Assembly: GCF_964204865.1 (NCBI RefSeq)
Contig: NC_135264.1
Location: 11,098,001 to 11,162,000 of the forward strand
Length of the DNA: 64,000 bases
DNA from: Styela clava
Lineage: Eukaryota
Direction: 5' to 3'
Of the stretch, positions 11,201 through 23,200 are shown piece after piece; position 1 is the first letter of the stretch, and the number at the start of each line of letters is the position of its first letter. The position numbers were made by a program.

Positions 11201-14200
11201 AAACAAATATTTTTCAGAAATGCTTCCTGATCCGATTGGCTTATCCCTATCTTCCTTGAAAACCTTGGAGCATCTGGTAAAATAAAATAATAACAATACA
11301 CAAGACAAACATACAGGAGGGGTAATTCATAAAGGTGGCAAGACTCGAAATGAGGTTTTAAACATAAACGTGCTGCTTTAAGAAGACGTCGTCTCTTAAT
11401 TGCTCAAACGTATATTTATGTAATGCACCTCAATTATATACTTGGGTCTAGTCATCAACTTACCGGACGTATATCCATGAGATTATGTTGTTTGCAATAT
11501 ACCAGCTATAAACTAAACTAACTCACCCACCCACTTCACCTCCGTTTCACCTGGCCGAATATTTTGCTCTTTTTTTCTTCGGATGCTCCATTGTGACAAC
11601 ACTTGTGTTGATTGGTTCAGTGTACTTTAAAAAAACACAATTTCACACTACTATAACGTGAGATTTGAATTTCGCTTGAACGGCATAAAAGATGTCGAAT
11701 CATAATATATATATCTATAAAAATATCACTCAAAAATTTCGTCTAAAGCGAAGTTACAATAATTCTTTATTGAATTATTATTCAAGAGTTCATCGAAAAC
11801 TGAGGCCTATGCAAGCTTTCCTAATGGTTTTTGCGTTTTCGACTTTTTCATAACCATTTGAAAGTCGGAAATATCGACTCCCTACTTCGGACTTTAGATG
11901 AATTCGAAAATATCACTGCTGCTTCGACACCACTAAAACATTCCAAATTCCAACTTCTCAGCCCTGATTAGAAACTAATTCACGTCCCCACGATATGCCA
12001 GTGGCACAGACAGTCACTGTTGTTTGGTTAGTGCTGAATTTATCTTGCTCACCTATTACCATGGTCTGAACATTTCCATTGCAGATTCTGAACTCGTAAT
12101 CTCCTTTAATGTTTTTTTTTTCTGTTGGACCCTAAATATTCTGAGTACATGATTCATCCATCGTTAGTCTGTTGAAGGAATGCTCCATTTTTGTAAATTT
12201 GCAGACGCAACTTGTTTTTCGACTTCTAAGCGTCAAATGAATGCGACAAAGAAATTAGCGAAGCCATTGCTATTTAACAGGTGTCCGGACCTTCAGGTAT
12301 TCCGCGTCAATGTGGCGTGGTTGAATCTGCTCCAAATTTTGCATGTGCATTCATCATATTTCGGACCAGAAGCCTATTGATTTTTATTTGATTTTTTTAT
12401 GTCGTATAATTAGTGAGTTATTAATTAATTAGTTAAAGGACACAATGTGTCACTATGGAGTAAGAGCGTTGTTTTGGGGATCCCCTAACTTTCGATCGAT
12501 GAGTCTTCGGTCTCTGAGCGATATTCTCGTATATTCGACTCAATGAATATTCTTGAACAGAAAAGTTACTCTAGGCCATATTTCTTAACCTAAGTTTGAC
12601 CGAACCTCTGGGGTTTGGTGGGGATGTTCCGTTGGTTCGCCGAAAGTCTTCTCAAATAGTGAATTATTATGGATTATGAAGTGAAATACTATGAAGTATT
12701 TCCGTTACCCAGCTCATAAATCATGAAAAAAACAATCATAGTTCACCGTCTCATTTTTCAAAAGTTTTCGAATCGCTGCCATCTTGTTTTCTTTGTCCGC
12801 TAAAGGTCGAGGTGAAATCCTCAAATTTTTTATTGAGGCTATATTTGTACAATGCAATTCTGACATATTAGTCTTTCCTCTTAGTGAGTTATTCACGAAA
12901 CAGGTTTCTTCATGGATGTGAACTCTCAGCAAACTGTCTGACTTTTTTAATTTATGTGTCCGGAGAATCAATTACAATAAAAAAAAGTCACAAGTATTCG
13001 AGATTCGGTTCTGGAATCATCAGGTTTTTGAAAATGCCTAGCTCTACCCACGATCAGTACGGTAACTTAAAACTAAATATGTCAGTGGTATCTTATGTAG
13101 GTCACAGTACAAAATTATGGGCGTAGTTGTACGTCTGTATAAAAATATAAAAACACAATTCAATTCGCATTTCGTGCAATTTTAAATTTTGTGACAGAGA
13201 AAAGTATTATAACATGGAAGGACTGTCGTCCGCCATTTGCAGTGAGATAAAGATTGATTTCCAAAAAAACGTCGCCGATTCCAAAAACGTTGGGACCAAT
13301 CATGGCTTGGATCATCACATGATTGGGTCTCGTCGACCAATCAGCACCACCAATCTTGTGTCACTAATTTTATCTTATGGTTCTTCATTATGATTGCTCT
13401 TTTTTTATTCTAACACGTTGGTCGGGAAAACGGGGATGACGCGCATTTGAATCAGGGGCATTGAGGAGATCGCAGCGTTTAGCGGTCGATGCATGTTAGG
13501 ATCGCTAAGTTAGAAGTCAGAGTTTTTGTAACTATTTGTAAATAATGTGTCTATTTATGCATGAGCAGAATGCAGTGCGAAGTTTCATTTTTCTTTAGTT
13601 AAATTCGTTCTTTGTTGAAAATTTGTTTGTTGTATTGTATTTATTCAAATGTTTATTAAAGTTATACGTATGATCTACTGTAGTACTATTCGCGACGACA
13701 GGAATGGAAGCGTAATTTTAACTTGCCAAAATAATCGTATTCTAATTGGGCATAGCATCTGCTGTAATTCTACGCTTCATTTTAACAGGGGCGAATCGCT
13801 CTTCAGTAGACGATATTGAGGTATAATTTTGTAGAGTGTATTCTATTTTGTGTATGCATTTGATATTTCAGTATCGTTTGTTTTTGAAATTCAGAAGGAG
13901 TGCAAAATCATTGTGGGATTCATGTGCATGCTCGTTTAAAGTGATCAATCAGTAAGTAATAAACGGACGAATGAGTGCTTCTAATGACTGCGTGTTTTTT
14001 GTTTGTAAGCATAGAATATATTAATGAGTATGTTCTACAGGTAATTGAATTGACGAGTGTGATTCATGATTTGAGTCGATATGTGTTATTTCGACGATTT
14101 TTGTTTGGTGGACATGGTCTCCTCTGTCCTGATTTCATCGACGGATTTCCTCAGCTAAGTTATATCGCATTGTATTTAATTTAAAGACATATCCTTACAT

Positions 14201-20200: not shown

Positions 20201-23200
20201 TCTACTGTAGTACGATTCGTTCCAGACCGAGTTAACTAATGGGGCACAAAATTGTTGTAGGTGCGATACTTTTTTAGAGGATAAGATTATTTCGGTCAAA
20301 TACGAATAGTACTATTGTAACCTTAAGTCAATAAACCATAAAATAGCACAATAAAACAAATAAAATTAAAGCATGAAACGTACGAAATTGCAGTAAAGTA
20401 CTATACTCTGCCTTGTGTATAAAAAAACACTACTCGAATGACTACAAAAAGGCTGACCAACTGACTGAAGTCTAGCCAAAACCGACCGCAAAACGCTGCC
20501 ATATCCTCAATGTCCCCGATTCAAATACGCGTCATCCCCGTTTTCCTCCGAGCCAACGTGTCAATATTAGAAAAAGGCAATCATAATAAAGAAACACAAG
20601 ATAAAATAAGTGGCACAAGATTGATAACACCGATTGGTTGATAGGTCACAATCACGTGACGGGCCTCGCCATGATTGGTTCCTACATTTTTGGGGATAAG
20701 CACGTCACGTACTTTGGCGTGATAAGATACCCAATTGATCATGTAACGAGAAGGAGTAGTGATAGAACCGAATGAAATCCAATTCACAAGCCAAGGTGGG
20801 CCCTTCGTCCTTCCAAAAACGTTCAACATTTATGTCTCCATGTGCTTATATATATATATCTATATACTCAGTTATTTTATGCGCCCTGTTTAATATTTAA
20901 AAACCCAAACAAACGGAGGCAGAGGAATTAACGAATCACCGTCAACTTATTTTAAATTAAGGTAGTCATCCTGATTGATCGGGCCCTGAAAATCCGCTCC
21001 GTGACTACCTAGCTAGGAGATGTGTGGGCCTGGTTTGAGAATCCCTGACCTAAACCCTGCCTGGTCAATGCGATCATCGCGGAAATCCTATTGACACGCA
21101 TAAAGGTTGGTGTATATTGTTAGATGGAATCAGGATTCTCTGCGATCGTAGCATCGTCTTCGCTGCCGCACCCAACACCATTTATTGAAATTCTTGAATC
21201 GCCGACTGGCCAAAAACCTGCGACCAGAGCAGTATTCTGGTAGATTCACCGTAACTGACTGGAGATTATTTATCAGATATGTGATTTTTGGTTTCATTCT
21301 CCCCGAAATACTTGATTTATCGCATGTAATTATAGTCATTGGCTAATTCCAATACCAGAAGTGCTACAAAGAACTAAAATTCTTCCCACACTTACTAGAA
21401 GATTGCAAACAGTAGCAGGCTTGCGTGCCCCGTCAACGGTTTTCTTCCGCAAATTGATGATCAGAGCTATATTGGCAGGCGGGATTTTGACGAAAAGCCC
21501 ACAATGTATAGCAAACTAAGCCTTACTTTTCCGATTGCTGATGATTAAGACAAACAAATGTATAAATATGTTTTATTGAAAACCGATCAGTAAAGACAAT
21601 AATAAAGACAGTGAGCAATACACAGCAACAATGCACACATTTGAAAACCAAGATTTCACAAGAATTAGAATATACTAAATATTAATAATCTTTGGTTCAA
21701 AGTTCACACAACAAGGCAAGTTGGAAATAAAAATTTCGAGTAGATGTCTGGCCTTACAAATGAAACAGGAGTTTCAGATTAGTACAACTTCTATGTGGTG
21801 TTAAAATGATTAATACATCTAATATATATAAATTCAGAGACATCAAAGTTGGGTATGATTGTTTTTCTTTGCTCTGAAAACGCATTCCTTTTCCATGCCT
21901 TGTGTATAGTGCATGGCTGTTGCCTGCGGCAAGAGTGAAGTCATCTTTTATAAATGAGTCTTATTGCACACTGAGGTAAGACTTCTGGTTAGAATATAGC
22001 GTTTTTAGGAAAATATCAGCATTCATTTAGTCGCTAAATTCCTCTATATTAAAGTCTTCATCAGGATCTTTATTAACATCTTCAATATTTTCTCCATCAG
22101 CAGCATCTGGACATGAAACTTCTAATTGTTGTAAATTTTCTGACATATTTTCACCCAGTTCATTTTCAACTATTTTTTCATTTACACTGAAAGGATGATG
22201 AAAATGAGTCATTTCACAAAAAATTAGATAGGTCGCAAAACCTTTTATAGTTTATACCCTACAATGGATCATAATGCAATATTGAGAATGAACGGTTGAC
22301 ACCGATAAGTGAATCTTGACACAGTAGGAGGTTATAATATCATGATCTATCAGTTTTGAAAGGTTATTGAAACTAGTATAGAAATATATTGCAGACATAA
22401 CAACTAGAAAATTACAGCTATATAACTTGATGTTTCAGCTATGTAACTTGAAAGATCTGACAATAAAAGTCAAAATATATATATGGAAATCACCTAAATT
22501 GGTTAACATAAATGAGTAAAACTCGAAAACACATTTTTTTAAATCTTCCCAGTCAACGCTGAATAGAGATTGATATATAGGCGGTGTGGCACATAGTGCT
22601 AAGTTAGGAATACGTACGCGATCACACATCTGATTACCCGGCATGAGTTCACAGGTTAGAATCCTTGTTTAATAATTATGTGCGAGAGGATTGCTGAACT
22701 CTTTTCTGCCGTAGGACCTACGGGTTCACGTCATCACCGGTCGGTTACGACTTCCTACACCATCCATTTCATGCAAATGACACAAATGCCTTTTTATCGA
22801 ATCCCAAAATCTGACATGTACTGGTAACTAAGCTTTCTTCTCCCGCGAGATAAATATGTAGAATCCCCACAACAGTTATTTGAATAGCCTCGTCTGTAGA
22901 GGGCACAGGAGATATCACAAGCTCCCATATAGACAGTGAAATTGCTATTTAGGGCAGCTATATAAAATGTGTACTGCTAATCAAGTGTAATATTTTACTT
23001 ACGAACTGTTCCGCAAATGTTTTAAATAATGTAATAATAATTACCTTGAAAAAGATTTCCACTTCGGCAAACTTATAACTTTGGATAAATATTCAATTTG
23101 ACTGCGATCGAGTGAAATACTTTCAAAATTTTTAGTTGTTGAATAATTTTTATTTCTTTGTATCGTAGTGATTTTTTGCATATATGGAAGCATGTTTAAT

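What the first reader, a model, noticed from the sequence alone, without database searches (positions are those of the whole stretch)
13200..20830. Ancient ~7.6 kb inverted duplication forming two convergent, paralogous spliced units without a shared ORF
Seen: the promoter-like block 13285-13490 aligns with the reverse complement of 20480-20695. Exon starts also pair up: cag|GCTTCTGAATTGGCGAA (14254) vs cag|GTTTTTTGACTTTGGCGAA (19937); cag|GTGAATCGAACAAGAAATGACAGACT (14929) vs cag|GCGAATCAAACATGAATTTGCAGACT (19485); cag|GTTCACCAACCGTG (16667) vs cag|GGTCATCAACAGTG (18692). Each unit ends at an AATAAA where the central palindrome begins. Promoter boxes and splice acceptors are retained while reading frame is not. 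Inference: a tail-to-tail lncRNA gene pair, possibly a dsRNA or small-RNA source, since read-through from either side would fold back.
Basis: partly seen in the sequence, partly recalled or inferred. Interest (0 to 1): 0.75.

Follow-up and report, generated by a model that had tools for sequence, protein, structure and literature searches.

The report
Old inverted duplicate of non-coding gene
Two diverged mirror-image copies of a spliced, apparently non-coding gene face each other across a younger 1.2 kb hairpin-forming repeat, which is an ordinary kind of gene duplication with no sign yet of a special function.

Summary
The inverted duplication is real. The two promoter-like blocks (13281-13488 and 20693-20483) match at 80% over 211 nt (E 1e-49). 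With these blocks and the centre left out, the inner arms still give a colinear inverted chain score of 251, against 106 +/- 28 in controls (0 of 68 reach it). The third (14254|19937) does not: the partner of 19937 is the A acceptor at 14041. No reading frame is shared and there is no codon periodicity. Pfam gave one chance-level hit among 134 ORFs, and no credible protein homologue was found. The 1.2 kb central palindrome (17145-18362) is a separate, younger layer. Its arms differ by K2P 0.11, against 0.22 for the promoter blocks. Its mismatches look neutral (15 G:U-type against 17 A:C-type) and it folds equally well on both strands. The sequence therefore shows no selection for a hairpin RNA. 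Best reading: an old tail-to-tail duplicate of a CCAAT-box-driven, spliced, probably non-coding gene, with a foldback-type element or a homogenised core between the two 3' ends. The dsRNA or small-RNA idea is physically possible but has no evidence. Transcription, genome-wide copy number and orthologues could not be checked.

The parts
13265..13488 (+). Unit A promoter-like / first-exon block. It holds 4 CCAAT/ATTGG boxes and a TGACGCG motif at 13437. The inner core 13425-13488 is the best conserved piece.
   Evidence: 80% over 211 nt to the B block, E 1e-49; core 91%; alignment. There is no codon periodicity (33 mismatches split 9/10/14, p 0.53) and stops occur in every frame. CCAAT/ATTGG count is 4 against 0.47 expected.
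20483..20709 (-). Unit B promoter-like / first-exon block, the inverted partner of 13265-13488. Two of the CCAAT boxes and the TGACGCG motif (20528) are shared with A.
13789..13820 (+). Unit A candidate exon 2. Its partner in B is about 20222-20194, where the aligned acceptor AG and donor GT are absent.
   Evidence: Chain block 13792-13817 | 20219-20194, 85%; junctions read.
13872..13951 (+). Unit A candidate exon 3 (80 nt). Partner is B 20069-20029 (41 nt).
   Evidence: The acceptor context 13858-13871 | 20083-20070 and the donor context 13952-13972 | 20028-20008 are both in the chain; junctions.
14041..14158 (+). Unit A candidate exon 4 (118 nt, weak GTTATA donor). Partner is B 19937-19761 (177 nt, GTAAGT donor).
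   Evidence: Acceptor pair scores 17, 0 of 193 null sites reach it. The 3' end plus intron start, 14129-14177 | 19791-19739, is 81% alike, E 3e-5.
14254..14341 (+). Candidate exon found in A only.
   Evidence: Score 11, reached by 7 of 193 and 5 of 193 null sites. All three frames carry stops.
14929..15037 (+). Unit A candidate exon 5 (109 nt). Partner is B 19485-19364 (122 nt). This is the best conserved internal exon.
   Evidence: Acceptor pair scores 28 against a null max of 12. Chain block 14982-15018 | 19419-19383.
15874..15929 (+). Candidate exon 6, found in A only.
   Evidence: Splice motifs. The best partner in B scores 11 against a null max of 14.
16667..17180 (+). Unit A last exon and 3' end, with ATTAAA at 17084 and AATAAA at 17153. 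It contains a tandem duplication, 16789-16858 ~ 17027-17096 (73%).
18330..18692 (-). Unit B last exon and 3' end, with AATAAA at 18368-18363 and 18354-18349.
19364..19485 (-). Unit B exon 5. Stops occur in all three frames.
19761..19937 (-). Unit B exon 4. Stops occur in all three frames.
20029..20069 (-). Unit B exon 3.
17145..18362 (.). Central palindrome. The arms are 17145-17732 and 17758-18362, with a 25-nt spacer at 17733-17757. Each arm holds two 33-34 nt tandem units.
   Evidence: 86.5% over 608 columns, E 7e-179. Folds at -868.9 and -868.4 kcal/mol on the two strands. K2P 0.109, GC 0.41. TRF rows 17280-17349 and 18150-18220. No other copy in the window.
15386..15524 (.). Dispersed-repeat fragment in an A intron, with relatives at 51794-51876 and 35658-35706. 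A fragment of the same repeat lies in B at 19017-19076 (~35708-35767) in the same, not the mirrored, orientation.
13674..13810 (+). Long-range stem that encloses the exon 2 acceptor (13674-13692 pairs with 13792-13810). The same stem is present in B (20319-20303 with 20219-20203).
   Evidence: Fold z -2.63 (1 of 200 shuffles as good) in A and -1.80 (11 of 200) in B. No compensatory changes, read by hand.

Best explanation
An old tail-to-tail inverted segmental duplication, about 7.4 kb (roughly 13265-20709), of one small multi-exon gene. Each copy keeps three things. First, a ~210-bp CCAAT-box-rich promoter and first-exon block. Second, at least four further splice junctions in the same order. 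Third, an AATAAA at the same place. The copies would therefore be transcribed towards each other by RNA polymerase II, spliced and polyadenylated (inferred, not shown). The exon bodies have drifted in length and sequence and share no reading frame, so the products are most likely non-coding RNAs, or long 5' leaders with at most a tiny orphan ORF in copy A.

The 1.2 kb palindrome between the two 3' ends is a later layer. The simplest origin is a foldback-type inverted-repeat element that landed in the spacer between the convergent genes. The alternative is that the core of the original palindrome was kept alike for longer by gene conversion between closely spaced inverted repeats. Its arms have since decayed neutrally.

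Shown here: the duplication, its limits, the conserved junctions, the lack of coding signal, and the age difference and neutral spectrum of the centre. Inferred: promoter activity, splicing, polyadenylation, and the origin of the centre.
For: Promoter blocks are 80% alike over 211 nt, E 1e-49. Their conservation is non-coding: 33 mismatches split 9/10/14 over codon positions (p 0.53) and stops occur in all frames. CCAAT/ATTGG boxes number 4 against 0.47 expected in A, and two boxes plus TGACGCG are shared with B.

The inner-arm colinear chain scores 251 against controls of 106 +/- 28, and 0 of 68 controls reach it. The chain blocks sit on AG| and |GT junctions. Acceptor pairs 14041|19937, 14929|19485 and 16667|18692 each beat all 193 null sites.

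There is no coding signal. Of 134 ORFs of 33 aa or more in six frames, 1 gave a Pfam hit, at E 0.007, which is chance level for 134 queries. B exons 4 and 5 have stops in all frames. A has an open frame in 5 of 6 exon-length pieces, which random pieces of the window match with P = 0.125. Exon 5 of A, searched on its own, found nothing in the word-indexed search. Against 1.84 billion representatives it found only 4 repetitive, translated-repeat-like proteins.

The centre is younger. K2P is 0.109 for the palindrome arms against 0.221 for the promoter blocks. There is a sharp drop to unalignable sequence outside 17145 and 18362. The mismatch spectrum is neutral, and the fold energy is equal on both strands. 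Each unit also has a poly(A) signal just outside the palindrome: ATTAAA at 17084 and AATAAA at 18368. That fits an insertion into the intergenic spacer.
Against: No expression data of any kind were available, so transcription, splice junctions and poly(A) sites are all read from motifs.

Copy B lacks the aligned AG and GT of exon 2, and two A exons (14254, 15874) have no B partner, so the two units are not strictly co-structured.

Copy A does carry a hand-read ORF of about 61 codons, from the ATG at 14956 through exons 5, 6 and the last exon. A small orphan protein cannot be excluded.

For the centre, no clear target-site duplication flanks the palindrome and no second copy exists in the 64 kb window. 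That is neutral to weakly negative for a transposon. The matching AATAAA inside both outer ends, and the 19-nt similarity of 17146-17164 to 16905-16923 in A's own 3' tandem repeat, hint that the outer edge of the palindrome may be old gene sequence rather than an element terminus.
Confidence: 0.55

Rival explanations
1. The two units are lncRNA genes whose read-through, or overlapping convergent transcription, across the palindrome makes a ~600-bp hairpin or dsRNA. This would be processed into endo-siRNAs, as at an hpRNA-type locus.
For: The palindrome folds into an almost continuous ~600-bp stem at -869 kcal/mol. Both units point into it, and their AATAAA signals lie at its outer edges. Rfam finds only below-threshold resemblance to long-hairpin miRNA precursor families at its centre: MIR856 scores 79.7 bits against a gathering score of 297.
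Against: The arm mismatches show no preference for wobble pairs on either strand (15 against 17, p 0.86), 44 of 76 are transversion-type, and the fold energy is the same on both strands. There is thus no sign that an RNA stem is being maintained. No other sequence in the window matches the arms, so no target is visible. Poly(A) signals lie before or at the edge of the palindrome, so ordinary transcripts would stop short of it. No Rfam family reaches its gathering score.
Confidence: 0.12
2. Copy A is a live gene for a small orphan protein of about 61 aa, starting at the ATG at 14956. Copy B is its decaying pseudogene, or has become a non-coding gene.
For: A exons 5 and 6 and the start of the last exon are open in compatible phases (read by hand). 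B has an ATG at the homologous place, followed by a frameshift and stops.
Against: An ORF of this size is expected by chance in AT-rich exons. Amino-acid identity between A and B in the aligned part is what 73% DNA identity gives without constraint. There is no Pfam match and no credible homologue of exon 5. A decaying pseudogene would not be expected to keep a promoter core that is 91% alike.
Confidence: 0.15
3. The centre is not an inserted element. It is the surviving core of the original palindrome, kept alike by arm-to-arm gene conversion until fairly recently, while the distal arms escaped and diverged.
For: Palindrome arms have K2P 0.109 against 0.221 for the promoter blocks. GC is 0.41 in the palindrome against 0.35-0.36 in the inner arms, as GC-biased conversion would give. 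The palindrome is single-copy in the window. The matching AATAAA context sits inside both outer ends, and there is a weak link to A's own 3' repeat.
Against: The boundary is abrupt and coincides with the gene ends, which conversion does not predict. The arms each carry two 33-34 nt tandem units, as foldback elements often do (the element feature is recalled, not tested). Higher GC fits foreign origin equally well.
Confidence: 0.3
4. The whole 7.4 kb is one decayed transposon whose ~210-bp blocks are its terminal inverted repeats. The 'exons' would then be chance or element-internal features.
For: The best conserved outer parts lie at the two ends, in inverted orientation.
Against: In a single inserted copy, the ends would decay at the same rate as the interior. 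Here the conservation is patchy and falls on splice-like junctions. Similarity fades gradually near 13255 and 20720, with no sharp terminus. No transposase or other domain appears among the 134 ORFs. There is no other copy in the window.
Confidence: 0.05

Closest known systems
Tail-to-tail (convergent) inverted gene duplicates and small genomic palindromes that carry a gene in each arm, as described for mammalian sex-chromosome palindromes (10.1101/800185, PMC8981503; I saw the search listing with title and start of abstract only)
   Same: Two arms in inverted orientation, one gene copy per arm, and a short spacer at the centre (25 nt here).
   Different: Those palindromes are over 10 kb and their arms stay above 99% alike through ongoing gene conversion. 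Here the arms are 3-4 kb and mostly unalignable. Only the promoter blocks, the exon junctions and the 1.2 kb core remain similar, at 80-90%.
Drosophila hairpin-RNA (hpRNA) endo-siRNA loci (PMC10317233, PMC10292708; search listing with title and start of abstract only)
   Same: A long inverted repeat that could fold into a hairpin of several hundred base pairs.
   Different: Those loci are transcribed through the repeat, yield siRNAs, and have arms homologous to a target gene. Here the flanking units appear to end at the edge of the repeat, no target is seen in the window, and the arm mismatches show no sign of stem maintenance. Small RNAs could not be tested.
Foldback-type or MITE-like inverted-repeat transposable elements (recalled, no paper read)
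   Same: Almost the whole element is two inverted arms with a tiny loop. It has internal short tandem units and no coding capacity.
   Different: There is no clear target-site duplication and no second copy in 64 kb. Genome-wide copy number could not be tested.
Paralogous lncRNA genes in which promoters and splice sites are better kept than exon sequence (general knowledge, recalled)
   Same: The promoter core is 91% alike and the acceptors are retained, while exon lengths differ and no ORF is shared.
   Different: Nothing here shows that either unit is expressed.

Membership tests
hpRNA / endo-siRNA hairpin locus | Long inverted repeat able to fold into an extended hairpin | tested here: met
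   -868.9 kcal/mol, nearly continuous ~600-bp stem
hpRNA / endo-siRNA hairpin locus | Both arms transcribed in one RNA that yields ~21-nt small RNAs | not testable with these tools
   No RNA-seq or small-RNA data. Poly(A) signals lie at or before the edges of the palindrome.
hpRNA / endo-siRNA hairpin locus | Arms homologous to a target gene | tested here: inconclusive
   No match to the arms elsewhere in the 64 kb window. The rest of the genome is not available.
Rfam miRNA precursor families (MIR856, mir-1269, MIR7696, MIR7125) | Score at or above the family's gathering threshold | tested here: not met
   79.7 against 297, 34.2 against 100, 33.1 against 83, and 33 against 100 bits. 0 hits at gathering thresholds in the whole window.
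Foldback / MITE-type transposable element (central palindrome) | Multiple dispersed copies | tested here: inconclusive
   Only this copy in the window. No eukaryotic genome collection is on hand.
Foldback / MITE-type transposable element (central palindrome) | Target-site duplication flanking the inverted repeats | tested here: inconclusive
   The flanks are AT-rich and low in complexity. No convincing direct repeat was read.
Large palindromes maintained by arm-to-arm gene conversion | Arms nearly identical (>99%) along their length | tested here: not met
   Core 86.5-90%, promoter blocks 80%, introns unalignable.
Duplicated protein-coding gene (or pseudogene pair of a recognisable one) | Shared reading frame, or codon-position bias in the differences | tested here: not met
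   Stops in all frames of B exons 4 and 5. Promoter-block mismatches split 9/10/14. Exon length differences of 59 and 13 nt.
Duplicated protein-coding gene (or pseudogene pair of a recognisable one) | Match to a known protein family or homologue | tested here: not met
   1 chance-level Pfam hit among 134 ORFs. Exon 5 of A has no word-sharing candidate and only 4 repetitive spurious hits among 1.84 billion proteins. The joined exons were not searched.
snoRNA / small-RNA host gene | Recognisable snoRNA or miRNA in the introns | tested here: not met
   Only snosnR60_Z15 at 22.8 bits against a gathering score of 41, E 4. Invertebrate snoRNAs absent from Rfam would be missed.
lncRNA gene pair | Transcribed and spliced, without coding potential | tested here: inconclusive
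   The lack of coding signal was tested and met. Transcription and splicing are not testable here.

The most novel reading that the evidence does not exclude
Two paralogous lncRNA genes have been kept by selection, with conserved promoter core and splice architecture, because their convergent read-through across the intervening 600-bp-stem palindrome feeds an endogenous RNAi (hpRNA-like) pathway in an invertebrate whose genome shows no CpG depletion. The conserved stem that encloses the exon 2 acceptor would be a second, shared RNA-structure switch.
Probability: 0.08. Interest if true: 0.55.

Novelty: new member of a known kind. Interest (0 to 1): 0.25.

Why it matters
If the units are expressed, this locus is a tidy natural example of how a duplicated non-coding gene evolves: the promoter core and the splice junctions persist while the exon bodies and introns are replaced. 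It also shows that a palindrome can be layered, with a centre younger than its arms, which bears on how inverted duplications form and decay. As it stands, it is an ordinary inverted duplicate with a repeat between the copies. Nothing in the sequence calls for a new mechanism.

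Tried and rejected
Protein-coding remnant: rejected for lack of any signal.

tRNA-derived SINE in the palindrome centre: this was an impression from reading. ARAGORN found 0 tRNAs and Rfam listed no tRNA at E up to 5, so I dropped it.

Exon 14254 as a tandem duplicate of exon 14041: not supported (score 10, reached by 32 of 193 null sites).

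B partner for A exon 6: none above the null.

Paralogy of the flanking genes (the APH-like exon at 9946-10437 and the minus-strand ORF at 22027-22251): there is only a 25-nt match at E 0.15 and a 23-aa match at E 8e-4 among 452 x 607 ORF pairs. The flank chain is no better than controls.

Conserved RNA structure in the promoter core and in exon 5: z-scores were +0.22, +0.49, +0.81 and -1.36, so there is nothing there.

The sigma-70 and terminator scan does not apply to a eukaryote, and I did not use it.

The first protein search, with the APH-like exon at lengths 'longer', found nothing, so the organism stayed unnamed. I take the window to be non-human and non-vertebrate: GC is 0.344 and CpG observed/expected is 1.01.

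Supplementary files of papers were not opened. For all papers I saw only the search listings.

The spliced model was searched exon by exon only (exon 5 of A).

Full report
What the window is. The 64 kb has no N, is AT-rich (GC 0.344) and shows no CpG depletion (observed/expected 1.01). I therefore take it for an invertebrate-type eukaryote and not for human or any vertebrate. No tool named the organism. The only recognisable coding piece near the finding is an APH-family (phosphotransferase) exon at 9946-10437 on the plus strand (Pfam E 1.9e-6), upstream of unit A.

Check of the observation. The outer blocks are real. 13281-13488 matches the reverse complement of 20483-20693 at 80.1% over 211 columns (E 1.2e-49), the inner 64 nt are 91% alike, and the block occurs nowhere else in the window. 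The centre is a 1.2 kb palindrome: 17145-17732 against 18362-17758, 86.5% over 608 columns, E 7e-179, with a 25-nt spacer.

I then removed both of these and asked whether the remaining inner arms are still related. The best colinear chain of weak BLAST matches scores 251 bits in the inverted orientation. 68 control comparisons of arm A with other window segments gave 106 +/- 28 (max 175, 0 of 68 reach 251), and the non-inverted orientation gave 108. The chain has ten blocks totalling about 300 nt, out of arms of 3656 and 2120 nt, so most of the arm sequence can no longer be aligned. The outer flanks show no excess similarity (112 against a control mean of 113, reached by 24 of 50 controls). 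The duplicated segment therefore ends at about 13265 and 20709.

Each was scored by local alignment over -20 to +70 nt against 193 other CAG|G sites of the window.
- 14929|19485 scores 28 (null max 12).
- 16667|18692 scores 14 (null max 12).
- 14254|19937 scores 11, which 7 of 193 and 5 of 193 null sites reach. It also breaks colinearity with the significant block 14129-14177 | 19791-19739.
The real partner of B's 19937 is the A acceptor at 14041 (score 17, 0 of 193). It also adds a short pair at 13789-13820 | about 20222-20194, where B has lost the aligned AG and GT. Two A exons (14254-14341 and 15874-15929) have no detectable B partner. AATAAA lies at 17153-17158 in A and at 18354-18349 in B, in homologous positions inside the outer edge of the palindrome. 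A also has ATTAAA at 17084, and B has a second AATAAA at 18368-18363 just outside the palindrome.

Coding or not. The promoter-like block is conserved as DNA and not as protein. Its 33 mismatches fall 9/10/14 over the three codon positions (p 0.53), and every frame has stops in both copies. Homologous exons differ in length by 39, 59 and 13 nt. B exons 4 and 5 have stops in all frames, and the exon 5 alignment needs a 2-nt gap. Copy A has an open frame in 5 of its 6 exon-length pieces, but random pieces of the same lengths from this window do as well with P = 0.125.

Reading phases by hand, A has an ORF of about 61 codons from the ATG at 14956 through exons 5 and 6 and the start of the last exon. 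B has an ATG at the homologous spot but then a frameshift and stops. In the HMMER search of 1.84 billion representatives it found only four proteins, all made of short tandem units that look like translated repeats. All 134 ORFs of 33 aa or more in six frames over 13200-20830 gave one Pfam hit, at E 0.007, which is the chance expectation for 134 queries. So 'no shared ORF' holds, and nothing points to a recognisable protein gene.

The promoter-like blocks. A carries four CCAAT/ATTGG boxes in 208 nt (0.47 expected, P 0.0014). Two of them, and a TGACGCG motif, are shared with B. The best conserved part (91%) lies 60-150 nt inward of these boxes, where a transcription start and first exon would be expected for inward transcription. 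This is inference from motif layout only.

The centre is a different layer. Its arms differ by K2P 0.109 (526 of 585 aligned sites match), while the promoter blocks, which I presume are under constraint, differ by 0.221. Just outside 17145 and 18362 the two sides cannot be aligned at all. In the wider alignment of 17130-18377 there are 76 arm mismatches. Of these, 15 would be G:U on the plus strand, 17 would be G:U on the minus strand, and 44 are transversion-type. The two strands fold equally well, at -868.9 and -868.4 kcal/mol. That is the pattern of neutral decay of an inverted repeat, not of a hairpin RNA held by selection.

The palindrome is GC-richer (0.41) than the inner arms (0.35-0.36), holds two 33-34 nt tandem units per arm, has no Pfam-recognisable ORF and has no other copy in the window. 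Rfam gives only below-threshold resemblance to long-hairpin miRNA families at its tip, and no family in the whole window reaches its gathering score.

Two origins fit. One is a foldback-type element inserted between the two 3' ends. This fits the abrupt edges and the extra poly(A) signals just outside. The other is a core of the original palindrome that was homogenised for longer by gene conversion. This fits the higher GC, the shared AATAAA context, and a weak 19-nt link to A's own 3' tandem repeat. I lean slightly towards the first.

How it most likely works. Two convergent, CCAAT-box-driven, spliced and polyadenylated transcripts without a shared ORF would be paralogous non-coding RNAs, or leaders with a tiny orphan ORF in A. 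Because the right arm is the reverse complement of the left, the normal 3' ends of the two RNAs are alike and not complementary. Double-stranded RNA would need read-through into the far arm or overlap of the two transcripts. That is possible, but nothing in the sequence shows it.

Compared with what is known. The architecture is that of a small genomic palindrome with one gene copy per arm. It lacks the above-99% arm identity of the sex-chromosome palindromes that are maintained by conversion (listings). The central repeat resembles an hpRNA locus only in its ability to fold (listings). I file the finding as a new member of a known kind, an inverted duplicate gene pair with a repeat at the centre, and score its interest low to moderate.

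Limits. No eukaryotic genome, transcriptome or small-RNA resource was available. Copy number, orthology and expression therefore stay unchecked.

Noticed in passing
window 13674-13692 / 13792-13810 and 20319-20303 / 20219-20203: In both copies a ~19-nt inverted repeat brackets the last ~100 nt of intron 1 and the start of exon 2, so the exon 2 acceptor sits inside a stem-loop. Fold z is -2.63 in A and -1.80 in B. Each copy has its own mismatches and there are no compensatory changes.
   Followed up: partly
window 9946-10437 (+): A 163-aa open exon with an APH-family phosphotransferase match (Pfam PF01636, E 1.9e-6). It is probably the last exon of the gene upstream of unit A. The word-indexed search of longer proteins found nothing.
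   Followed up: partly
window 9949-9973 (+) vs 22089-22065 (-): A 25-nt match (84%, E 0.15) between the start of the APH-like exon and a minus-strand ORF at 22027-22251, in mirror orientation. It could be a last trace of a once larger duplication or could be chance. The flank chain test gave nothing.
   Followed up: partly
window 15386-15524, 19017-19076, 35658-35767, 51794-51876: Fragments of one dispersed repeat. The copies in arm A and arm B have the same orientation, not the mirrored one, so they are independent insertions made after the duplication. 15363-15386 / 15526-15549 form a short inverted repeat around the A copy.
   Followed up: no
window 16789-16858 and 17027-17096: A tandem duplication of about 240 bp in the 3' region of unit A (73% over 70 nt). 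Its second copy ends about 20 nt inside the palindrome.
   Followed up: partly
window 27197-27510: A 169-bp unit repeated 1.9 times at 100% identity. This is a very recent tandem duplication.
   Followed up: no
window 42915-43647: A tandem array with period 124/249 bp, about 5.8 copies at 83-86% identity, directly upstream of a 165-aa ORF at 43595-44092.
   Followed up: no
whole window: CpG observed/expected is 1.01 at GC 0.344, so the genome shows no sign of CpG depletion.
   Followed up: no
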